A DNA stretch of 54,414 nucleotides. It comes from a bacterium (GTDB lineage: Bacteria > Patescibacteriota > CPR2 > UBA1875 > JAJYID01). Shown in pieces: positions 2,980 to 45,699 of this stretch (the first letter of the stretch is position 1; every line of letters starts with the position of its first letter). Location of the stretch: positions 1 to 54,414 of the forward strand of contig JAJYJC010000003.1 of NCBI GenBank assembly GCA_021796415.1. The letters run 5' to 3'. The notes beneath the pieces were generated by a model. It saw nothing but the letters and a program-made list of their open reading frames with translations. It did no database searches and was not told where the DNA came from. A program made the translations under genes and the position numbers.

Positions 2980-3260
2980 GTCATTCTGGCCTGCCTGCCG
3001 GCAAGGCGGGCTTGGCCAGAATCTATATTAAGGTTTTCTGGGATGAGGCGGCTATATCCACCTTTGTTTTATGCTCAATCCCACACCCGGTGTGGGATTG
3101 AGCATCCGGAATCTATACCAGAAAATCTGAGTTCTAAAGTCAATTTCGAAATGGCAAAGGGCAAGGGATTCCGGGCAAGCCAGGATGACACGTTTAGCAA
3201 GTTTGGAATTGAATGTTGAAGTTTGATTGGAAATTGTAAATTAGAAATTGAGAATTGAAT
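2980..3260. repeat. Composite repeat cluster (GTCAT/ATGAC REP-like + 20-bp module + CCCACACC palindrome + heptamer arm)
   Basis: GTCATTCTGG..CCAGAATC (2980-3023), ATGCTCAATCCCACACC-C-GGTGTGGGATTGAGCAT (3071-3105), GATTCCGGGCAAGCCAGGATGAC (3167-3189), TTAGAAATTGAGAATTG. Confidence 0.8.
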
Positions 3261-5896: not shown

Positions 5897-5978
5897 GTCA
5901 TTCCCGCGCAGACGGGAATCCAGACATTAATATAGATTCCCGCCTGCGCGGGAATGACAAATGATGGGTAGGAATGAC
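5897..5978. repeat. REP-like doublet (dRS3/RPE-like, CGTC family)
   Basis: GTCATTCCCGCGCAGACGGGAATCCAG ... AGATTCCCGCCTGCGCGGGAATGAC ... GGAATGAC. Confidence 0.85.
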
Positions 5979-20008: not shown

Positions 20009-20104
20009 GGCGGCATCATTGGCTGCCTTTCTCCTTTTAAGGGGGCGTTTTTTGTAGTAGAATGAATGGGTTAATCGGTTTATTGGTAAATGGGTTGATT
20101 GGAA

Positions 20105-21925
20105 ATGGATTCTAAAGAACTAAGGCAAAAGTTTCTGAAATTTTTTGAAGAGAAGGGGCACAAAGTTATCCCTTCAGCTTCGCTTGTGCCCGAAAACGAC
20201 CCGTCGGTGCTTTTCACCACCGCCGGCATGCATCCGCTCGTCCCTTATATCATGGGGGAGGATCACCCGAAAGGCAAAAGGCTGACTGACTCTCAGAAAT
20301 GCATTCGCACTGATGATATCGAAGATGTGGGCGATAGAGTTCACCATACTTTTTTTGAAATGTTGGGAAATTGGTCGTTTGGTGACTATTTCAAGGAAGA
20401 TGCCATTAAATACAGCTACGAGTTTTTGACTGATAAAAAATGGCTTGGTATAGATAAAAACAAACTAGCCGTAACTGTGTTTATGGGGGACAAGGACGCG
20501 CCTTTTGACGAAGATTCATATAACATCTGGCTTTCACTGGGAATTCCCAAAGAAAGAATTGCAAGGCTTGGCAAAAAGGACAATTGGTGGGGACCGGCCG
20601 GCGAGACCGGGCCGTGCGGGCCGGACACGGAAATGTTCTTTTGGTCAGCAAAAGAAAAAGCTCCTGAAAAGTTTGACCCAAATGACGACAGATGGACTGA
20701 GATTTGGAATGATGTTTTTATGCAGTACAACAAGAAAAAGGATGGGAAATTTGAAACGCTGAAACAAAAAAATGTCGATACCGGCATGGGGCTCGAGAGG
20801 ATGCTGGCGGTTCTAAACGGCTTTGACGATGATTACCGGACCGATTTGTTTACACCGATAATTAAACGAATTGAAAAGCTATCTGATATGGAGTACGGCG
20901 AAAAGACTGACGAAGAATATGTAAAGGAAGATTTGCAGTGCTGGGTTGATGTAAGGATTCAGTTTAGAATCATTGCAGATCATGTAAAGGCGGCGATTTT
21001 TGCAATTAATGATGGAGTTATACCTTCAAATAAACAAGCCGGTTATGTTACACGCCGATTGATTAGGCGAACTATCGTTAAAGGCCACCAGGTCGGCATA
21101 AAAGAGAATTTTCTCGCTGATTTTGTCGAAGTAATCCAAGAAATTTATAAAGGTATCTATGATCTGAAGGCTGATTTAATTACAAAAGAGCTAAAGTCTG
21201 AAGAGGATAAGTTTAGAAAGACTCTGCAAGTTGGCTTGAAAGAATTTGAAAAAGTTTCAGTTAAATCAATTTCAGGAAAAGACGCTTTTGATTTGTACCA
21301 GAATTATGGTTTTCCCTTGGAAATGGTTGAGGAGTTGGCAAAAGAGAAAAAGCTAAAAGTAGATAAGAAGGGATTTGAAGAAGAATTTAAAAAACATCAG
21401 GAGCTTTCGCGCAGCGCTTCGGCCGGTATGTTCAAGGGCGGTTTGGCGGATGATTCTGAAATGGCGACCAAATATCATACGGCAACACATTTATTGAATG
21501 CAGCGCTGAGAGAGGTTTTGGGTGATCATGTCGAGCAAAGGGGGTCAAATATCAATGCCGAAAGGTTGAGATTTGACTTCTCTCATGACGTGAAAATGAC
21601 CGATGAGGAAAAGAAAAAAGTTGAGGATCTGGTCAATGGACAGATTGCCAATAATTTACCCGTTACAAAGGAAGAGATGACAGTCGAAGAAGCCAAAAAA
21701 CAAGGCGCCGTAGGAGTATTTGGTGAGAAATATGGTGAAAAAGTCTCGGTCTATACCATTACCAATCCCACACCGGGTGTGGGATTGAAGGGGGAGCGTG
21801 TTTTCAGCCGGGAAATCTGCGGCGGGCCGCATGTCAAAAACACCGGTGAGCTGGGACGCTTCAAAATTAAAAAGGAAGAATCAAGCTCGAAGGGGGTGAG
21901 GAGAATTAAGGCGGTTTTAGAGTAA
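20105..21925 (+). CDS. alaS: Alanine--tRNA ligase lacking the C-Ala domain
   Basis: LFTTAGMHP, HTFFEMLGNWS, VDTGMGLER, HTATHLL, ICGGPHV; ends at GVRRIKAVLE. Confidence 0.96.
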   Translation: MDSKELRQKFLKFFEEKGHKVIPSASLVPENDPSVLFTTAGMHPLVPYIMGEDHPKGKRLTDSQKCIRTDDIEDVGDRVHHTFFEMLGNWSFGDYFKEDAIKYSYEFLTDKKWLGIDKNKLAVTVFMGDKDAPFDEDSYNIWLSLGIPKERIARLGKKDNWWGPAGETGPCGPDTEMFFWSAKEKAPEKFDPNDDRWTEIWNDVFMQYNKKKDGKFETLKQKNVDTGMGLERMLAVLNGFDDDYRTDLFTPIIKRIEKLSDMEYGEKTDEEYVKEDLQCWVDVRIQFRIIADHVKAAIFAINDGVIPSNKQAGYVTRRLIRRTIVKGHQVGIKENFLADFVEVIQEIYKGIYDLKADLITKELKSEEDKFRKTLQVGLKEFEKVSVKSISGKDAFDLYQNYGFPLEMVEELAKEKKLKVDKKGFEEEFKKHQELSRSASAGMFKGGLADDSEMATKYHTATHLLNAALREVLGDHVEQRGSNINAERLRFDFSHDVKMTDEEKKKVEDLVNGQIANNLPVTKEEMTVEEAKKQGAVGVFGEKYGEKVSVYTITNPTPGVGLKGERVFSREICGGPHVKNTGELGRFKIKKEESSSKGVRRIKAVLE

Positions 21926-30089: not shown

Positions 30090-31916
30090 GTGTGCGGAAT
30101 TGTCGGATATCTTGGCGAAAAAAATGCTGAAAATACCTTGCTCGAAGGCTTAAAAAGGCTTGAGTACAGAGGTTATGATTCTGCAGGAATTGCGATCATA
30201 AAAAACGGAAAGGTAACTTCCCGAAAAGCTGTCGGCAAGATTGTCAATCTAGAGAAGAAGATTAACGGGAAAAATATGGATGCTGGTATTGGCATTTCCC
30301 ACACAAGATGGGCGACTCATGGCAAGCCGACAGAGGAAAACGCCCACCCGCATCTTTCTTGCGACGGAAATATCGCAGTTGTCCACAATGGCATCATTGA
30401 AAATTACCAAGCGCTCAGGGAAGAGCTAAAGAAAAAGGGGCACAAGTTTGTTTCCGAGACAGACTCTGAAGTTTTGGCCCATTTGATCGAAGAATTTTAT
30501 AAAAATGATTTTAAGCGCGCAGTTTGCGAAGCACTCAAGCTAGTTGAAGGGACATATGGTATCGCCGTAATTGCTGGCGACAAGCCTCAGGAAATCATTG
30601 TAGCCAGAAAGGGCAGCCCTCTAGTTCTGGGTATTGGAGAAAATGAAAACTTTGTGGCATCTGACGTGGCGGCGATTTTAGGCTATACAAAACAGGTTGT
30701 TTATCTAAATGACGGGGAAATTGCCAAGATCACCAAAAACAACTTCGAAATCACTGATTTAGATGAGAAAAAGATAGATTCCGAGATTAGCGAGATCGAA
30801 TGGTCCCTGGAAGAGTCCCAAAAGGGCGGCCATGACCACTTTATGCTAAAAGAAATCATGGAACAGCCCAAGGTAATAGTGGATTCGACGAGAGGAAGGC
30901 TAATGCCGGATGAGGGGACGGTAAGGCTTGGCGGGCTGGAGGCCGTGGAAGAAAAATTAAGAAAAATTGAACGCATCATCATTCTCGCTTGCGGCACGGC
31001 CAGATATGCCGGCCTGGTCGGCGAATACATGATGGAGGAATACGCCGAAATTCCGGTTGAAGTTGAGTTTGCGTCCGAGTTTCGCTATCGAAAACCGATA
31101 CTTGACGAGCGTACTGCCGTGATAGCGATAAGCCAGTCGGGCGAAACGGCAGACACCCTGGCGGCTATCCGCGAGGCTAAAAGGAAGGGAGCTTTGACGC
31201 TTGGCATTGTAAATGTTGTCGGCTCGACGATTGCCAGAGAAACCGATGCAGGCGTGTATAATCATGCCGGCCCGGAGATTGCCGTAGCTTCAACCAAAGC
31301 GTTCACTTCGCAACTAATAGTTTTGACTCTGATGACAGTGCTCCTAGGCAGGCAGAGGAAAATGTCTGAAGTAACCGGCAGAAGGATTATTGAAGAAATT
31401 GAAAAATTGCCGAAAAAGATCGAGAAAATTCTTGGCGCCAAAGACGATATTAAAAAATTAGCCAAGAAGTACGCCGATTACCCGAACTTTATGTATCTGG
31501 GCCGAAAATATTGTTTTCCTTTGGCCGAGGAGGGGGCATTGAAGCTCAAAGAGATTTCCTACATCCATTCCGAAGGTTTTGCAGCCGGCGAGATGAAGCA
31601 TGGCTCCATTGCTCTTATTGATGAAGATTTTCCGGTATTTGCAATAGCTCCCAAAGACAGCGTTTATGAGAAAAACATTTCAAATATTGAGGAAATTCGG
31701 GCCAGAATGGGTAAGATCATTATTTTAACCACGGAAGGAAATAAAGAAGCGGAGAAAATAGCCGACGATGTCATATACATACCGAAAACACTAGAAATGC
31801 TGACGCCGATTCTCGGCGTGGTGCCGCTTCAGCTCTTTGCTTATTACATTTCTTGCTTCCGAGGGCTTGATGTCGACAAGCCGCGAAATTTGGCAAAATC
31901 GGTAACAGTAGAGTAA
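30090..31916 (+). CDS. glmS: Glutamine--fructose-6-phosphate aminotransferase
   Basis: MCGIVG, EYRGYDSAG, HTRWATHG, SQSGETADT, EMKHG, PRNLAKSVTVE. Confidence 0.98.
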   Translation: MCGIVGYLGEKNAENTLLEGLKRLEYRGYDSAGIAIIKNGKVTSRKAVGKIVNLEKKINGKNMDAGIGISHTRWATHGKPTEENAHPHLSCDGNIAVVHNGIIENYQALREELKKKGHKFVSETDSEVLAHLIEEFYKNDFKRAVCEALKLVEGTYGIAVIAGDKPQEIIVARKGSPLVLGIGENENFVASDVAAILGYTKQVVYLNDGEIAKITKNNFEITDLDEKKIDSEISEIEWSLEESQKGGHDHFMLKEIMEQPKVIVDSTRGRLMPDEGTVRLGGLEAVEEKLRKIERIIILACGTARYAGLVGEYMMEEYAEIPVEVEFASEFRYRKPILDERTAVIAISQSGETADTLAAIREAKRKGALTLGIVNVVGSTIARETDAGVYNHAGPEIAVASTKAFTSQLIVLTLMTVLLGRQRKMSEVTGRRIIEEIEKLPKKIEKILGAKDDIKKLAKKYADYPNFMYLGRKYCFPLAEEGALKLKEISYIHSEGFAAGEMKHGSIALIDEDFPVFAIAPKDSVYEKNISNIEEIRARMGKIIILTTEGNKEAEKIADDVIYIPKTLEMLTPILGVVPLQLFAYYISCFRGLDVDKPRNLAKSVTVE

Positions 31917-31970
31917 GAAGTAAATTAAAAGTTATTATGAATTTATAATTTCGAATTGTAAATTATACCC

Positions 31971-32152
31971 GGGCCTATAGTTAAACGGTATAACGCGGCG
32001 TTCGTCCCGCACATATTTTCAAAATATTTAGGGGTTATCGTATAATGGCTATTACATGGCATTCGCATTGCCAAAATCTGGGTTCGATTCCCAGTAACTC
32101 CACCAATATGTGCGGGACCGTATTCCGAGTTCAATTCTCGGTAGGTCCACCA
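31971..32152 (+). ncRNA. Split/interrupted tRNA-Ala-like frame enclosing a complete tRNA
   Basis: 5' half GGGCCTA-TA-GTTA AACGGTA TAAC-G-CGGCG-TTCG; 3' half CCG-TATT-CCGAG TTCAATT CTCGG-TAGGTCC-ACCA; 7-bp acceptor with G3:U70; 14-bp IR at 32004-32017 and 32105-32118. Confidence 0.8.
32031..32105 (+). tRNA. tRNA-Ala(CGC)
   Basis: GGGGTTA/TAACTCC acceptor with G3:U70, TGGCA-TT CGC AT-TGCCA anticodon arm, CTGGG TTCGATT CCCAG T arm, encoded ACCA; 75 nt. Confidence 0.95.
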
Positions 32153-32173
32153 TTTGACTAACTAATATTTTTT

Positions 32174-32758
32174 ATGAGTATCAAAGAGGGTCAAATCTGG
32201 AAATTGGCAAGACCACTGCTGGAAAAGGGTCTGAATAAAGACTTTGTGCTGCATGCCCAAGGCGTTTTAGCAGCGGTGAAATTAATTGCAAAAGAAGAGG
32301 GGGGAGATCTGGAAATTCTCATTCCTGCCGCTATTTTGCATGATGTGGGTTGGGCGAAAGTTCCAAATGACAATCAAAAAACGAAAGATACGGAAAAAAG
32401 AGCCGAGGGAGAAAAGCTTCATCTGATTTTTGGAGCGGAACTAGCTGGAGATATAATGCAAAAATTGGATTATAGCGATAAGGCAGCCAAGGAAGTGGCC
32501 AAAATCATTAAATCCCATATGGACACAGAGCCCAATGATAAGAATACCAAAATTTTAATAGATGCGGATGCCTTGAGTGATGTTTTTAGGGATAATTTTT
32601 ATGCAGAAAGCAAGGCTTAAGGCAATGACCTTGAGAGCCATTTAGAAATCAGGTCTGGAAATAAATTTTTCACTAAAACAGCCCGGGAAATTTTTGATCG
32701 CGAACTAGCAGCAAGAAAAAGGGAGATTGAGGAAAATGCGAGTCAAAGAAGCGCTTAA
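32174..32758 (+). pseudogene. HD-domain protein interrupted by an in-frame TAA at 32618-32620
   Basis: VLHAQGV, AILHDVGW, IIKSH, LIDADALS; the frame stays open 45 codons after the TAA (FFTKTAREIFDRELAARKREI). Confidence 0.62.
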
Positions 32759-33752
32759 GTGGGCAAACCGACAATTGAAAAACAATAAAGTTTCTGAGCC
32801 GGAAAAATCGGCAGAGTTTTTGCTGCGGCAAGTTTTAAGCGCAGGAGCTCAGTCCCACACCGGGTGTGGGATTGAATGGGATAAAGCCAAGTTAATCGCA
32901 AATCCCGATTACGCATTAACTGGGAAGCAGGAGGAGCAATTCCGCCAGTTCATCGAGAGACGCAAGAAGCACGAACCGGTTTGGTATATAACGGGGCGCA
33001 TAGAATTTTATGGACTGGATTTGGAGGTCAGCCAGGATGTTTTGATTCCGCGGCCGGAAACAGAGTTTCTGGTTGAAGAGGTGCTCTCCGTCATTCCCGC
33101 GGAGGCGGGAATCCAGAGAAAGGATTGTATAGATTCCCGCCTCTGCGGGAATGACAGTAAAAAGGGCGGGAATGACAATGCTGCTAGGATTTTGGAGCTG
33201 GGAACAGGGAGTGGAGCGATATCTCTTGCGCTTGCGAGCCAATTCAAGGGTAAAAAAGAAGGATTCTGGTCAAGCCAGAATGACGTAGAAATTTTTGCTT
33301 CGGATATTTCCAGTGATGCACTTAAGATTGCCAAAAGGAATGCAAAGAGGTTAGGACTGGATTCCCGATCGGGGTCGGGAATGACAAAAATAGTCGGCAT
33401 TGAGTTTCGGCAGGGAGACTTGCTGGCGCCATGGCAAGGTGAAATGTTTGACATCATTGTTGCCAATTTGCCATACATACCGCATGAAGATCTGGATTCG
33501 TTAGCACTCGATATCCATCACTGGGAACCAAGGGTGGCTTTGGACGGAGGCAAGGAAGGTCTGGAGATTTACGAAAGGCTGATAAAACAGGCAAAAGATT
33601 ATTTAAATGAAAATTATCAAATGTTTTTTGAAATAGGCATTGGCCAAGGGAAGGGAATTCGCAAATTAGCCGAAAAATACTTACCGGAGGCAAGCGTTGA
33701 AATAAAAAAAGATTATGGCGACATTGACCGCATCGCTATAATCAAAGGCTAG
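32736..33752 (+). CDS. prmC: Release factor glutamine methyltransferase PrmC with four repeat-derived inserts
   Basis: EPVWYITG, VLIPRPETE, ELGTGSGAI, DIS..AL, ANLPYIP, ALDGGKEGL, EIG, KDYGDIDR. Confidence 0.95.
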   Translation: MRVKEALKWANRQLKNNKVSEPEKSAEFLLRQVLSAGAQSHTGCGIEWDKAKLIANPDYALTGKQEEQFRQFIERRKKHEPVWYITGRIEFYGLDLEVSQDVLIPRPETEFLVEEVLSVIPAEAGIQRKDCIDSRLCGNDSKKGGNDNAARILELGTGSGAISLALASQFKGKKEGFWSSQNDVEIFASDISSDALKIAKRNAKRLGLDSRSGSGMTKIVGIEFRQGDLLAPWQGEMFDIIVANLPYIPHEDLDSLALDIHHWEPRVALDGGKEGLEIYERLIKQAKDYLNENYQMFFEIGIGQGKGIRKLAEKYLPEASVEIKKDYGDIDRIAIIKG

Positions 33753-33757
33753 AAATC

Positions 33758-33833
33758 TGGTGGACCCTACCGGGATCGAACCGGTGACCTCATCCATGCC
33801 ATGGATGCGCTCTACCAACTGAGCCAAGGGCCC
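33758..33833 (-). tRNA. tRNA-Ala(GGC)
   Basis: Reverse complement GGGCCCTTGGCTCAGTTGGTAGAGCGCATCC-AT GGC AT-GGATG..CCGGTTCGATCCCGGTAGGGTCCACCA; G3:U70, A32-U38. Confidence 0.96.
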
Positions 33834-43002: not shown

Positions 43003-45699
43003 ATGTATCTCAAAAACATTCATGTTGCAGGATTTAAGTCTTTCGGAGGGAAGAATGTTTTGGATTTCCCCGAAGCCGGAAGCGCCAAGCAGAAAAGTTT
43101 TGCCGCGGTTGTCGGACCGAACGGAAGCGGAAAGAGTAATATTGCCGACGCTATCCGCTGGGTTTTGGGCGAACAATCTTCGAAGCTTCTCAGAGTGAAA
43201 AAAGGCGAGGACGTCATATTCTTCGGCAGTGCCAAGAAGGGCAGGGGATCATTCTCGGAAATTTCTTTAACCTTAGATAATGCTTGTTCCTTCCGTCATC
43301 CTGAGGTATCGAAGGATCTCAAAAGTAATTTCCAATTTCCAATTTCCCTGCCTCGCCGGCAGGCAGGCAATTTCCAATCAAATTCAAATGTTCAAAATTC
43401 AAAAGGATTGGATTCCCGCCTTCGCGGGAATGACATGGAAATAAATGGAAATGACAATGGTGTTGACCTTTCCGAGATTGAAATTACCCGCCGCCTGTAT
43501 CGAAACGGCGATAATGATTACTTTGTTAACAGGAAAAAGGTCAGGCTGTTCGATGTGCAGGAACTGCTTGCAAAATGCGGGGTGGGAAGATCTACTTATA
43601 CAGTTATCGGACAGGGGATGGTTGATTCTTTGCTTTTTTATGGTCCGGCTGAGCGGAAAGTTCTCTTCGAGGAAGCATCGGGCGTGAAGCAGTATGAGAT
43701 CAAGCGCGCTGAATCTTTACGCAAACTAGACTCAACAGACAAAAACATTATCCGCATTAAAGATCTTTTGTATGAATTGGAGCCGAGATTGAAGTCGGCT
43801 GAGCGAAACTTCAAAAAATACCAAAAAAAGCAGGATATAGAGAAGGAGCTGGATGAGCTGAGCCGCAAATATTATTCCGGCGTATTTTCTCAAATTCAAT
43901 CCAAGAAAGAAAAGCTGCAGAAGGAACTCACAGAATTTAAGAAGAAAGAATCCGGCCTGCAGTCAGAAATTACTGCACTGGAAGCAAAAATCGCCAAAGG
44001 TTTAAAAGCCGAGGGTTCTGACAAGAAGGAGAAAGAGCTTCGAGGGAATATTGACTCGCTTGCTGCAAGAAGCGATGATCTTGCGCGGCAAATTTACAGA
44101 TTAGAGGCTGAAAATCAAGCGTCGAAGTCTGTATTCTCAAGGGAGAAGGAAGGGCTTTTCGGTGAAAGAGATAGGATTTCTCGGGACATCCGAGAGTTAG
44201 AAGAAAAAATAGCCAGGCTAAATACAGAGGGCAGTGAAAATCAGGCGAGGCTTGATAGCGCCAAGAGAGAGCTTGCCGAGCTGGACAAAAGAATTGTTTT
44301 TTCAAATGACACTCTGGCAAAAATTCAACGGGAAAGCTTGTCTTTGACCAAGGATGACATTCGAAAAAAGCTAGAAGAGATTTACAAAAATTACTCGCTG
44401 GTGGTGGCAAAAATGAATTCCGTCACTGATCTGAAAAGTTTCGGCAAACTCAAAAAAGAGGCGGAAAGTGTAGCAAATGCCTTAGATGCTTTGGCAGAAG
44501 ACATCAAAAAAAGCCAGAGCACCGACACCAGCCTGCTTGAAAGCAAGCAAAAAGAGATAAAGGGGCTGGTTCAAAATAAGGAAAAAATACTCAGTATCAT
44601 TCAGGATTTAAGGGTCAGATCCATTTCACGGGAAGACATCTTGAAGAATTCAAAAAGCCGGGCCGAGAGCTTAAAGAAGCAATTAGAAGATACAGTTGCC
44701 AAGATAGGCAGTTTAAAAGAGCCGGAAGCCGGAGGTTTGAAAAAGATTACCGAGTTAAACCGGGAAAAAACAGGCATAGACGAGGAAATTTCTGAGTTAA
44801 AACTTAAGCTGGAGGAGTTGGCGTCAAAAAGCGCTTCCGGTGACTATACTAAGATTTTGGAAGATGAGAAGTCAAGGAGAAGAGAGCTCGCGGGTGTTCA
44901 AGAAGAAATTGGCGCTTTCAATATTGATCTGGCAAAGGTAGAGACGCGCGAGGAAGATTTGCGCGATGAAATCCATGAGTTTCTGGGCGAGACATTTTAC
45001 AAGGGTCTGACCCTTGCAGAGGACAGTCCTCTGCAAGGCGGGAACTTTGACCATCTGATGCCAAAAATCCAGCGCCTTCGAAAGGACATGTATGCGCTCG
45101 GCGAGATCGACCAGTTTGTCGGGGAAGAGTTTGAAGAGCTGGAGGGGAGGGTTGGTGAATTGCGTGAACAATATGAGGATTTGGAAAAGGCAAAAAAAGA
45201 CATATTGAAAGTTATAGGAGAGTTAGACGCGCGCATCAAGACACAGTTCAAAACCACATTTGTAAAAATTTCAGAGGAGTTTACCAAATATTTCAAAATT
45301 CTTTTTGGCGGGGGCAATGCGGCATTGAATCTAGAAACAGATGAGGAGGGAAACTTTGGCGTGGAGATTACAGCGACGCCGCCGGGCAAGAAAAACCAGT
45401 CTCTAAATTCGTTATCAGGCGGAGAAAGGGCTCTGACCTCGATCGCGCTTCTTTTTGCTATTTTAAGCGTAAATCCAAGTCCATTCTGTGTACTGGATGA
45501 GGTAGACGCTTCACTTGACGAAACAAATACTGAAAGATTTTTGGAAATTTTAAAAACTCTCTCACATAAAACTCAATTTATTGTCGTTACACACAACCGC
45601 GAAACCATGAAGAAAGCCGACGTTATCTACGGCGTCTCCATGGACGACAATCATGTGTCGCAAGTGTACTCGCTGAAACTGACAGAAGTTGGAACATGA
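43003..45699 (+). CDS. smc: SMC-family ATPase (short, no evident hinge) with repeat-derived insert
   Basis: GPNGSGKSN Walker A, IGQG Q-loop, LSGGE, LDEVDASLD, VTH; composite repeat at 43295-43455. Confidence 0.9.
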   Translation: MYLKNIHVAGFKSFGGKNVLDFPEAGSAKQKSFAAVVGPNGSGKSNIADAIRWVLGEQSSKLLRVKKGEDVIFFGSAKKGRGSFSEISLTLDNACSFRHPEVSKDLKSNFQFPISLPRRQAGNFQSNSNVQNSKGLDSRLRGNDMEINGNDNGVDLSEIEITRRLYRNGDNDYFVNRKKVRLFDVQELLAKCGVGRSTYTVIGQGMVDSLLFYGPAERKVLFEEASGVKQYEIKRAESLRKLDSTDKNIIRIKDLLYELEPRLKSAERNFKKYQKKQDIEKELDELSRKYYSGVFSQIQSKKEKLQKELTEFKKKESGLQSEITALEAKIAKGLKAEGSDKKEKELRGNIDSLAARSDDLARQIYRLEAENQASKSVFSREKEGLFGERDRISRDIRELEEKIARLNTEGSENQARLDSAKRELAELDKRIVFSNDTLAKIQRESLSLTKDDIRKKLEEIYKNYSLVVAKMNSVTDLKSFGKLKKEAESVANALDALAEDIKKSQSTDTSLLESKQKEIKGLVQNKEKILSIIQDLRVRSISREDILKNSKSRAESLKKQLEDTVAKIGSLKEPEAGGLKKITELNREKTGIDEEISELKLKLEELASKSASGDYTKILEDEKSRRRELAGVQEEIGAFNIDLAKVETREEDLRDEIHEFLGETFYKGLTLAEDSPLQGGNFDHLMPKIQRLRKDMYALGEIDQFVGEEFEELEGRVGELREQYEDLEKAKKDILKVIGELDARIKTQFKTTFVKISEEFTKYFKILFGGGNAALNLETDEEGNFGVEITATPPGKKNQSLNSLSGGERALTSIALLFAILSVNPSPFCVLDEVDASLDETNTERFLEILKTLSHKTQFIVVTHNRETMKKADVIYGVSMDDNHVSQVYSLKLTEVGT

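What the first reader, a model, noticed from the sequence alone, without database searches (positions are those of the whole stretch)
31971..32152. A tRNA inside a tRNA: intact tRNA-Ala(CGC) nested in the anticodon arm of a second tRNA-Ala frame, zipped by a 14-bp inverted repeat
Seen: the outer frame has a full 7-bp acceptor stem GGGCCTA/TAGGTCC with G3:U70, A73 and encoded CCA, a 4-bp D stem GTTA/TAAC with the GG loop motif, U8/A14 and A15/U48, and a perfect T arm CCGAG-TTCAATT-CTCGG. Its anticodon arm begins normally (CGGCG-TT-CG) and resumes as CCG-TATT, but in between lie GTCCCGCACATATT (32004-32017), a 13-nt AT spacer, a complete 75-nt tRNA-Ala(CGC) (32031-32105) and AATATGTGCGGGAC (32105-32118), the exact reverse complement of the left segment. 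Established: G3:U70 plus A73 is the AlaRS identity set; split tRNAs of Nanoarchaeum use complementary flanks of about this length, and two-piece tmRNAs are made by ordinary tRNA-end processing. Inference: RNase P and 3' trimming of the inner tRNA would leave a two-piece, alanylatable, anticodon-less tRNA-like RNA, or a ligatable precursor. Alternatively an ancestral Ala(CGC) gene was replaced from within by a tRNA-carrying insertion. I know of no described bacterial tRNA nested in a tRNA, but cannot search.
Basis: partly seen in the sequence, partly recalled or inferred. Interest (0 to 1): 0.93.

Follow-up and report, generated by a model that had tools for sequence, protein, structure and literature searches.

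The report
Native tRNA-Ala gene split by inserted tRNA-Ala
In this uncultured Patescibacteria (CPR) bacterium, a 113-base insert carrying a foreign, complete alanine tRNA gene cuts the native tRNA-Ala(CGC) gene in its anticodon loop, and sister strains still carry the intact gene or a further-rearranged version, so this is a tRNA gene replacement caught in progress, not a new kind of RNA.

Summary
Window 31971-32152 holds a complete tRNA-Ala(CGC) (32031-32105) flanked by a perfect inverted repeat and enclosed by the two halves of a second tRNA-Ala frame. Two further assemblies are 100% identical across it.

Comparison with close relatives decides what it is:
- **State A (intact):** strain L083 (GlmS protein 97% identical) has the outer frame as an ordinary 74-nt tRNA-Ala(CGC). 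Relatives with 90% identical GlmS also have it, with a compensatory acceptor-stem change.
- **State B (nested):** in the window, five bases of that gene (CAATG, positions 36-40) are replaced by a 113-nt insert. The insert is a 13-bp terminal inverted repeat, a 13-nt spacer and a 72%-identical foreign tRNA-Ala(CGC).
- **State C:** three other contigs keep only the outer 5' half, the left repeat and the inner tRNA. A divergent HD gene follows directly.

So the outer frame is a freshly disrupted native gene, and the outer 3' half is dispensable. The inner tRNA most likely takes over, transcribed from the old promoter.

The two-piece functional RNA is not supported, though not excluded as a by-product. 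How the insert arose is unresolved: a miniature inverted-repeat element or a fold-back repair scar.

The parts
31917..31970 (+). glmS-tRNA intergenic region, the presumed promoter region of the native (outer) tRNA gene and therefore of the whole nested transcript.
   Evidence: AT-rich with TATAAT-like hexamers read directly from the sequence. The consensus scan found no full two-hexamer match on the + strand, so the promoter is inferred, not shown. The stretch is 100% identical in state-C contigs L090 and L091 but very different in state-A contig L083.
31971..32004 (+). Outer 5' half: positions 1-35 of the native tRNA-Ala(CGC). It holds the acceptor 5' strand, the D arm, the anticodon-stem 5' strand and U32 U33 C34 G35.
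   Evidence: 34/34 identical to the intact allele in L083. Also retained unchanged in state-C contigs L082, L090 and L091.
32005..32017 (+). Left 13-bp terminal inverted repeat TCCCGCACATATT. It extends to 14 bp with the tRNA's own G32004.
   Evidence: Absent from the intact allele.
32018..32030 (+). 13-nt AT-rich spacer TTCAAAATATTTA, the immediate 5' leader of the inner tRNA.
   Evidence: Identical in all state-B and state-C contigs.
32031..32105 (+). Inner, complete tRNA-Ala(CGC) with G3:U70, A73 and encoded CCA. It is foreign in type: 54/75 identical to the native gene.
   Evidence: ARAGORN, Rfam 60.1 bits, pairwise identity. A T32C polymorphism occurs in L082 and L091.
32105..32117 (+). 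Right 13-bp terminal inverted repeat AATATGTGCGGGA. Its first A is the last A of the inner CCA.
   Evidence: Present only in state B (window, L081, L098) and absent in state C.
32118..32152 (+). Outer 3' half: positions 41-76 of the native tRNA-Ala(CGC). It holds three bases of the anticodon-stem 3' strand, the variable loop, the T arm, the acceptor 3' strand and ACCA.
   Evidence: 34/35 identical to the intact allele; the one difference is G57 to A in the T loop.
32107..32655 (+). Tract that differs between state B and state C: right repeat, outer 3' half and HD gene codons 1 to about 160. In state C a roughly 60%-identical sequence replaces it, and that sequence starts directly after the inner tRNA.
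   Evidence: Sliding identity and pairwise alignments. The HD proteins are 48% identical.
32174..32620 (+). HD-domain gene downstream (148 codons up to an in-frame TAA). Context gene that marks the right-hand side of the variable tract.
   Evidence: Pfam PF01966. Reading through the TAA gives the same 192-codon length as the state-C allele.
30090..31916 (+). glmS, the upstream anchor gene used to find orthologous loci.

Best explanation
The outer frame is the clade's native tRNA-Ala(CGC) gene. A recent DNA-level event removed anticodon-loop and stem positions 36-40 (CAATG). In their place it put 113 nt: a 13-bp inverted repeat, a 13-nt spacer, a complete tRNA-Ala(CGC) of foreign sequence type, and the inverted repeat again.

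**Shown**
- The outer gene can no longer give a decoding tRNA.
- The inner gene has every feature of a working tRNA-Ala(CGC).
- The strain population holds three states of the locus: A (intact), B (nested) and C (outer 5' half, left repeat and inner tRNA only).

**Inferred**
- The inner tRNA is transcribed from the old promoter inside a precursor of about 180 nt.
- RNase P and 3'-end trimming release it.
- The outer halves are then merely its 60-nt leader and 47-nt trailer.
- The population recombines heavily. The block of outer 5' half, left repeat, spacer and inner tRNA has spread nearly unchanged across diverged backgrounds.

**Unresolved: how state B arose.** There are two candidate routes.
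1. A 113-bp inverted-repeat cassette was inserted or captured at a break in the anticodon loop (A to B). Homologous recombination with the donor lineage of the inner tRNA then swapped the downstream part (B to C).
2. A segment from a divergent lineage was first imported (A to C). A C-type fragment then recombined into an A-type chromosome, anchored by homology on the glmS side. The free end was sealed by a 14-nt fold-back copy, which created the right repeat (C x A to B).
For: **The outer frame is a real native gene.**
- Intact allele at the same locus in L083 (GlmS 97% identical): GGGCCTATAGTTAAACGGTATAACGCGGCGTTCGCAATGCCGTATTCCGAGTTCGATTCTCGGTAGGTCCACCA. ARAGORN calls it tRNA-Ala(cgc) and Rfam scores it 61.6 bits.
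- The same gene occurs in relatives with 90% identical GlmS (L086, L087), with a compensatory A7:U66 to G7:C66 change, at 63.3 bits.
- Its acceptor stem resembles that of the resident tRNA-Ala(GGC) at 33758-33833.

**The disruption is fresh.**
- The window's halves match the intact allele 34/34 and 34/35, and only CAATG is missing.

**The outer 3' half is dispensable.**
- L082, L090 and L091, from three assemblies, have the identical left junction and inner tRNA. They have no right repeat and no outer 3' half.

**The inner tRNA is foreign and of the same isoacceptor.**
- It is only 72% identical to the native gene, with differences across all stems.
- Its 3' 26-mer has no match in the JGI metagenome or IMG/VR collections.

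**The population is a recombining mosaic.**
- The 135-nt block is 134-135/135 identical in the window, L082, L090 and L091.
- Adjacent flanks are only 79.5-95% identical.
- The window matches state C on its left and state A on its right.

**The sequence is real.**
- Three assemblies are identical across the region.
Against: - No expression data exist, so promoter use and processing are inferred.
- The donor lineage of the inner tRNA and of the state-C HD allele was not found.
- Neither origin route explains everything cleanly.
  - Route 1 needs a cassette with perfect terminal repeats. No target-site duplication and no second copy were seen anywhere.
  - Route 2 needs fold-back priming on about 2 nt of pairing.
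- The 60-nt leader shows no change across four backgrounds. That could reflect selection on the leader, not recent spread.
- All state-B copies are identical, so selection on the nested form cannot be assessed.
Confidence: 0.8

Rival explanations
1. The 113-bp unit is a miniature, non-autonomous inverted-repeat mobile element (MITE-like) that carries a tRNA gene as cargo. It inserts into the anticodon loop of the cognate tRNA gene, killing the resident copy while supplying a substitute.
For: - Perfect 13-bp terminal inverted repeats sit exactly at the insert ends.
- The insert and its target are the same isoacceptor.
- The block has spread across diverged strain backgrounds.
- Short palindromes with a related arm core (TCCCRCAC / GTGYGGGA, TCCCGC / GCGGGA) are strongly over-represented in the window: 11 observed against 1.8 expected, and 7 against 0.22. 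They also differ between strains at one site in prmC, so some hairpin-mobilising activity may exist in this population.
Against: - There is no target-site duplication; 5 bp of target are lost instead.
- No second copy of the terminal repeat occurs in the 54-kb window, in any fetched locus or in IMG/VR.
- State C has only one terminal repeat.
- No transposase gene is nearby.
- The resemblance to the palindrome families is 7 of 8 bases of a core and could be chance.
Confidence: 0.12
2. The nested gene is a functional device: processing of the inner tRNA leaves a two-piece, alanine-accepting, anticodon-less tRNA-like RNA held by the 14-bp helix and the acceptor stem, or a precursor that is ligated. 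That RNA would have a role of its own.
For: - The full transcript folds as a nested double cloverleaf.
- The two pieces cofold at -42 kcal/mol with an intact acceptor stem, T arm and G3:U70.
- It is established knowledge that AlaRS charges acceptor-T minihelices carrying G3:U70.
- An AlaRS gene lies in the window (20099-21925).
Against: - The halves are unaltered fragments of the native gene.
- Ligation cannot restore positions 36-40.
- State C lacks the 3' piece in three assemblies.
- State A strains lack the arrangement altogether.
- A perfect 13/13 repeat points to a recent DNA event, not to a helix maintained by selection.
- There is no tag reading frame and no tmRNA features.
Confidence: 0.05
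3. The insert is an RNA-level intron (a group I intron or an archaeal-type bulge-helix-bulge intron) that is spliced out to restore a working outer tRNA.
For: The position is in the anticodon loop, where bacterial group I introns and archaeal introns sit (bioRxiv 10.1101/2020.01.27.920355; PMC4090602).
Against: - At 113 nt there is no room for a group I catalytic core, and no Rfam intron hit appears even at E up to 10.
- The helix at the junction is continuous, without a bulge-helix-bulge.
- No splice choice recreates a 7-nt loop on a 5-bp stem. The best ARAGORN construct leaves a 3-bp stem.
- The intact allele shows that 5 nt are simply missing.
Confidence: 0.01
4. The nested form is an assembly chimera of co-occurring state-A and state-C strains.
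For: States A and C co-occur in the same sample set (ERZ27233562 holds both). The window resembles C on its left and A on its right.
Against: - The right-junction sequence (inner CCA, AATATGTGCGGGA, CCGTATT) exists on that strand in neither A nor C.
- A 14-nt repeat cannot bridge k=31 or k=141 graphs.
- Three assemblies give the identical sequence.
Confidence: 0.02

Closest known systems
tRNA-dependent lysogeny of actinobacteriophages (Guerrero-Bustamante & Hatfull 2024, PMC10865867)
   Same: Incoming DNA lands inside a host tRNA gene and does not rebuild it. [quoted passage not shown]
   Different: In the phage system a tyrosine integrase recombines attP with attB through a common core of about 10 bp, and a whole prophage is inserted. 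Here the insert is 113 bp. It has no integrase and no direct repeat at the junctions, the target loses 5 bp, and the ends are inverted repeats.
tRNA gene disruption seen as population heterogeneity in Caldiarchaeum subterraneum (Sugahara et al. 2012, PMC3293823)
   Same: A natural population holds several states of one tRNA locus. One of them has a 5' fragment of one tRNA copy lying upstream of a complete copy of the same isoacceptor, much as in state C here. The authors interpret it as rapid disruption by integrated mobile DNA and recombination.
   Different: That case is archaeal, with a 1.8-kb recombinase-encoding element and with introns that the splicing endonuclease removes. This one is bacterial (CPR), has no recombinase, has a whole tRNA enclosed by both halves, and has no splicing route.
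Split tRNAs of Nanoarchaeum and two-piece (permuted) tmRNA
   Same: Two RNA pieces could be held together by a long helix that replaces the anticodon arm. The acceptor end would be alanine-accepting, as in tmRNA.
   Different: Split tRNAs are joined at a bulge-helix-bulge to give a full anticodon loop, and tmRNA has a tag reading frame and pseudoknots. Neither feature is present. The resemblance is structural only.
Rickettsia palindromic elements and other short palindromic selfish DNA inserted in genes (mentioned in PMC1458961 and PMC1779305; original description recalled from memory)
   Same: These are short palindrome-bounded insertions tolerated inside functional genes. The window also carries short palindromes inside the AlaRS and prmC reading frames.
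   Different: Rickettsia elements are multi-copy families with no cargo gene. The 113-bp unit is single-copy in all the data available here and carries a tRNA.
Homology-facilitated illegitimate recombination in natural transformation (term used in PMC6382021 and PMC8116780; mechanism from established knowledge)
   Same: There is one homologous anchor (the glmS side, 100% identical block from 31897). The other side has an illegitimate joint with a small target deletion and 1-2 nt of microhomology.
   Different: A 14-nt fold-back copy at the joint is not a standard feature of that mechanism. DNA uptake in this organism is assumed, not shown.

Membership tests
Canonical tRNA (Rfam RF00005), inner gene | Contiguous cloverleaf scoring above the gathering threshold, with a 7-nt anticodon loop and AlaRS identity elements | tested here: met
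   60.1 bits against a threshold of 29. ARAGORN calls tRNA-Ala(cgc) with G3:U70.
Canonical tRNA (Rfam RF00005), outer frame in the window | Contiguous or spliceable cloverleaf with an intact anticodon arm | tested here: not met
   No tRNA hit for the halves at E up to 10. ARAGORN's default intron mode does not call it. Positions 36-40 are absent. The intact allele in L083 and L086 does pass, at 61.6 and 63.3 bits.
Bacterial group I intron in a tRNA anticodon loop | Group I catalytic core (P3-P9), typically 200 nt or more | tested here: not met
   The insert is 113 nt, 75 of which are a tRNA. No intron family appears in cmscan at E up to 10.
Archaeal bulge-helix-bulge intron / split tRNA | Two 3-nt bulges around a 4-bp helix at the exon-intron borders, with exons that join to a complete anticodon arm | tested here: not met
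   The 14-bp helix is continuous. Joined exons lack 5 nt, and the best artificial splice leaves a 3-bp stem.
Archaeal bulge-helix-bulge intron / split tRNA | Presence of a tRNA splicing endonuclease (EndA) in the genome | not tested
   Only a 54-kb window is available. The organism is a Patescibacteria bacterium by GlmS relatives.
Two-piece / permuted tmRNA | tRNA-like domain plus a tag reading frame and pseudoknots | tested here: not met
   ARAGORN finds no tmRNA. Rfam tmRNA_permuted scores 11.9 bits against a threshold of 47 and covers only the T arm and acceptor.
Integrase-mediated element at a tRNA gene (including tRNA-dependent lysogeny) | Direct repeat of the att core at both junctions with no loss of target bases | tested here: not met
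   The left junction is TTCG|TCCC and the right junction is GGGA|CCGT. They share no core, and CAATG is lost.
Integrase-mediated element at a tRNA gene (including tRNA-dependent lysogeny) | Integrase gene within the inserted DNA | tested here: not met
   The insert is 113 bp. The neighbours are glmS, HD, prmC, obg and LysM/CHAP genes.
Integrase-mediated element at a tRNA gene (including tRNA-dependent lysogeny) | [quoted passage not shown] | tested here: met
   Both are tRNA-Ala(CGC).
MITE / inverted-repeat DNA transposon | Terminal inverted repeats | tested here: met
   13/13 perfect repeats at the insert ends.
MITE / inverted-repeat DNA transposon | Target-site duplication | tested here: not met
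   There is no duplication; 5 bp of target are deleted.
MITE / inverted-repeat DNA transposon | Multiple copies at different sites | tested here: inconclusive
   None in the 54-kb window, in 102 fetched loci or in IMG/VR. The rest of the genome and the ENA and Logan DNA could not be searched.
Homology-facilitated illegitimate recombination product | One homologous anchor plus one illegitimate joint at microhomology, often with a deletion in the recipient | tested here: inconclusive
   The pattern fits: a 100% identical block from 31897 to 32106 shared with L090, then an A-like right side. The parental sequences were not sampled.

The most novel reading that the evidence does not exclude
The 113-bp unit is a new kind of miniature mobile element: an inverted-repeat-bounded tRNA cassette that inserts into the anticodon loop of its cognate chromosomal tRNA gene. 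It destroys that gene and replaces its function in one step, and it is now sweeping through a recombining CPR population. A weaker variant of this reading is that the leftover halves in state B form an alanine-charged two-piece tRNA-like RNA with a cellular effect.
Probability: 0.12. Interest if true: 0.8.

Novelty: new variant of a known kind. Interest (0 to 1): 0.5.

Why it matters
The locus is a natural snapshot of how a tRNA gene becomes disrupted and replaced. Intact, nested and half-deleted alleles coexist in one population of ultra-small CPR bacteria. Models for the origin of split and disrupted tRNA genes have so far leaned on archaeal examples with recombinase-bearing elements. Here the same outcome arises in a bacterium from a 113-bp insert with no enzyme gene.

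There is also a practical point. tRNA finders report only the inner gene, so remnants like this go unannotated, and 5' tRNA fragments upstream of tRNA genes may mark past replacement events. If the cassette proves to be mobile, it would be a new class of selfish element tied to tRNA identity.

Tried and rejected
- **Synteny search in reference genomes.** The GlmS protein search in genome contigs returned 80 loci. The best is 69% identical, and none has a tRNA-Ala downstream of glmS.
- **Inner tRNA in public collections.** The 3' 26-mer gave 0 hits in IMG/VR and 0 in JGI metagenomes. A degenerate anticodon-arm plus T-arm pattern gave one unrelated tRNA-Ala(CGC), L099.
- **Inverted-repeat pair with a variable gap in IMG/VR.** 0 hits.
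- **Cassette against phage and plasmid records.** Only generic tRNA-level similarity of about 75% in phages, and nothing in plasmids. A phage or plasmid origin is unsupported.
- **Homologues of the state-C HD allele.** The next relative is 54% identical and sits in unrelated contexts without tRNAs, so the donor lineage was not found.
- **Further GlmS relatives.** P0004's contig ends 16 nt after glmS, and P0009 has a different gene order.
- **Integrase att-site model.** Rejected, because the junctions share no core.
- **Splicing models.** Rejected, because the anticodon arm cannot be rebuilt.
- **Promoter.** The only good promoter-like match on the + strand (32018-32046) would start transcription inside the inner tRNA, so I do not take it as functional.

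Full report
**1.

The sequence at 31971-32152 reads exactly as described.
- The outer frame has the acceptor stem GGGCCTA/TAGGTCC with G3:U70, A73 and CCA. It also has the D arm GTTA-AACGGTA-TAAC and the T arm CCGAG-TTCAATT-CTCGG.
- Inside it lie GTCCCGCACATATT (32004-32017), a 13-nt AT spacer, a complete tRNA-Ala(CGC) at 32031-32105, and AATATGTGCGGGAC (32105-32118).
- ARAGORN and Rfam call the inner gene (60.1 bits).
- The repeat finder reports the 14-nt arms as 100% complementary.
- The 14-mer occurs nowhere else in the window, and hits at three mismatches are at chance level.
- As RNA, the 182 nt fold into the nested double cloverleaf (-59.6 kcal/mol, z = -4.5).

Neither Rfam at E up to 10 nor ARAGORN's default intron mode recognises the outer frame. 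Artificial deletions make ARAGORN call a tRNA, but with only a 3-bp anticodon stem.

**2. It is not an assembly artefact**

A Logan contig from SRR13170411 (L081) and an ENA contig from ERZ27233565 (L098) are 100% identical to the window over 3106 and 4608 bp, and both span all junctions. The right junction exists on that strand in neither of the other alleles. A 14-nt repeat is too short to mislead assemblers at k=31 or k=141. I could not establish whether these assemblies share reads.

**3. What the organism is**

GlmS relatives place the window in Patescibacteria/Parcubacteria (CPR). The nearest species-representative genome has only a 69% identical GlmS, and none of the 80 loci has a tRNA-Ala after glmS. 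The large protein collection, however, holds GlmS proteins 99%, 97% and 90% identical, all from one set of ENA assemblies. Their contigs decide the case.

**4. Three states of one locus**

| State | Contigs | What is at the locus |
|---|---|---|
| A (intact) | L083 (GlmS 97%); L086, L087 (GlmS 90%) | Ordinary 74-nt tRNA-Ala(CGC) |
| B (nested) | window, L081, L098 | Native gene split by the 113-nt insert |
| C | L082 (GlmS 99%), L090, L091 | Outer 5' half, left repeat, spacer and inner tRNA, then a divergent HD gene |

*State A.* L083 has, at the same place and followed by the same HD gene, the sequence GGGCCTATAGTTAAACGGTATAACGCGGCGTTCGCAATGCCGTATTCCGAGTTCGATTCTCGGTAGGTCCACCA (Rfam 61.6 bits). 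L086 and L087 carry the same gene with a compensatory A7:U66 to G7:C66 change (63.3 bits). It is therefore a real, conserved gene of this clade.

*State B.* The window's halves match the intact allele 34/34 and 34/35. Only CAATG (positions 36-40) is missing, replaced by 113 nt (32005-32117). The outermost G:C of the 14-bp helix belongs to the tRNA, so the inserted repeats are 13 bp.

*State C.* These three contigs, from three assemblies, have the identical outer 5' half, left repeat, spacer and inner tRNA. After the inner CCA comes AGGATTATT-ATG and an HD gene whose product is only 48% identical to the window's. There is no right repeat and no outer 3' half.

**5. Boundaries and mosaicism**

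States B and C diverge from 32107 to about 32655, which is the end of the inner tRNA to HD codon about 160. After that they are about 90% identical again.

The 135-nt block of outer 5' half, left repeat, spacer and inner tRNA is 134-135/135 identical in the window, L082, L090 and L091. Yet the adjoining glmS 3' end is only 88.5% (L082) or 95.2% (L090) identical, and the intergenic region is 79.5% identical in L082.

The window's upstream intergenic region equals that of the state-C contigs L090 and L091 and is unlike that of state A. Its downstream side is A-like (94.6% identical in the HD start). So the population is a recombining mosaic, and the block has moved between backgrounds recently.

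**6. Which tRNA is native**

- The outer type occurs in three lineages, and it shares the GGGCC...GGTCC acceptor with the resident tRNA-Ala(GGC) at 33758-33833.
- The inner type is 54/75 identical to it, with changes in every stem. It is seen only in states B and C.
- Its 3' 26-mer is absent from the JGI metagenomes and IMG/VR.

The inner gene is therefore the incomer.

**7. How it most likely works**

*Shown:* the outer gene cannot give a decoding tRNA, and the inner gene is complete.

*Inferred:*
- Transcription starts at the native promoter upstream of 31971.
- RNase P cuts at G32031.
- 3' trimming stops at the encoded CCA.
- The outer 5' half plus left repeat and spacer form a 60-nt leader. 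The right repeat plus outer 3' half form a 47-nt trailer.

In state B the leader and trailer can pair (cofold -42 kcal/mol). They would present an acceptor/T minihelix with G3:U70, which AlaRS is known to charge. An alanine-charged two-piece by-product is therefore possible, but state C shows it is not needed.

**8. How the insert arose (unresolved)**

- **Integrase model:** fails. There is no shared core, 5 bp are lost, and there is no integrase.
- **Intron models:** fail.
- **Inverted-repeat cassette:** fits the perfect terminal repeats. It lacks a target-site duplication and any second copy.
- **Import plus fold-back:** state C arose first, by import from a divergent lineage that has tRNA-Ala(CGC) followed by an HD gene. 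A C-type fragment then recombined into an A-type chromosome, anchored on the glmS side, and its free end was sealed after a 14-nt fold-back copy of the left repeat. This fits the C-like left and A-like right of the window, and it fits the fact that the right repeat starts at the last A of the CCA. It needs priming on about 2 nt.

The donor lineage was not found.

**9. Comparison with known systems**

- The closest functional parallel is tRNA-dependent lysogeny. There, integration breaks a host tRNA gene and the phage brings a same-isotype tRNA (PMC10865867).
- The closest evolutionary parallel is the Caldiarchaeum population, with a 5' tRNA fragment upstream of a complete copy (PMC3293823).
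- The present case differs from both. It is bacterial, the insert is 113 bp with no recombinase, the ends are inverted repeats, and both halves of the old gene enclose the new one.
- The resemblance to split tRNAs and two-piece tmRNA is structural only.

**10. Verdict**

This is a real and unusual gene arrangement: a native tRNA gene disrupted and functionally replaced from within. It is polymorphic in a recombining CPR population. It is a new variant of a known kind, with moderate interest.

Noticed in passing
window 32618-32620 (HD gene 32174-32752): The HD-domain gene has a single in-frame TAA at codon 149. Read through, the frame continues for 43 more codons (GNDLESHLEIRSGNKFFTKTAREIFDRELAARKREIEENASQRS...). 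That gives the same 192-codon length as the intact allele in L082 and L090, so it is probably a recent nonsense mutation or a truncated variant.
   Followed up: partly
window 3079-3097, 21766-21784, 32853-32871; also L086 and L087 near 4711: A palindrome family, AATCCCACAC-CSG-GTGTGGGATT, occurs three times. One copy is inside the AlaRS reading frame (translated NPTPGVGLK) and one is inside prmC (translated SHTGCGI, a different frame). The core TCCCRCAC is found 11 times against 1.8 expected. The arm core differs by one base from the cassette's terminal repeat.
   Followed up: partly
window 5938-5953, 33095-33110, 33135-33171, 43414-43429; L082 and L090 at the site matching window ~32840-32900: A second palindrome family, (GTCA)TTCCCGC-NNNN-GCGGGAAT(GAC), is found 7 times against 0.22 expected. 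Two copies lie in-frame inside prmC. At one prmC site the window has a family-1 hairpin where L082 and L090 have family-2 hairpins, so these elements vary between strains inside a coding region.
   Followed up: partly
window 20099-21925: The alanyl-tRNA synthetase is a short form of 608 aa (catalytic tRNA-synt_2c plus tRNA_SAD domains only), about 10 kb upstream of the two tRNA-Ala genes.
   Followed up: no
window 31300-31970 against L082: Identity between strains drops sharply inside glmS, from 98.6% (31300-31584) to 88.5% (31585-31896). This indicates recombination breakpoints within the gene.
   Followed up: partly
L082 and L091, at the position matching window 32062: The inner tRNA is polymorphic at anticodon-loop position 32: T in the window and L090, C in L082 and L091.
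   Followed up: no
window 33758-33833 (- strand): A second alanine tRNA, tRNA-Ala(GGC), lies 1.6 kb downstream on the opposite strand, just after prmC.
   Followed up: no
L083 3698-3825: The state-A strain has a 128-nt glmS-tRNA spacer where the window has 54 nt. About 74 extra bases have no counterpart in the window.
   Followed up: no
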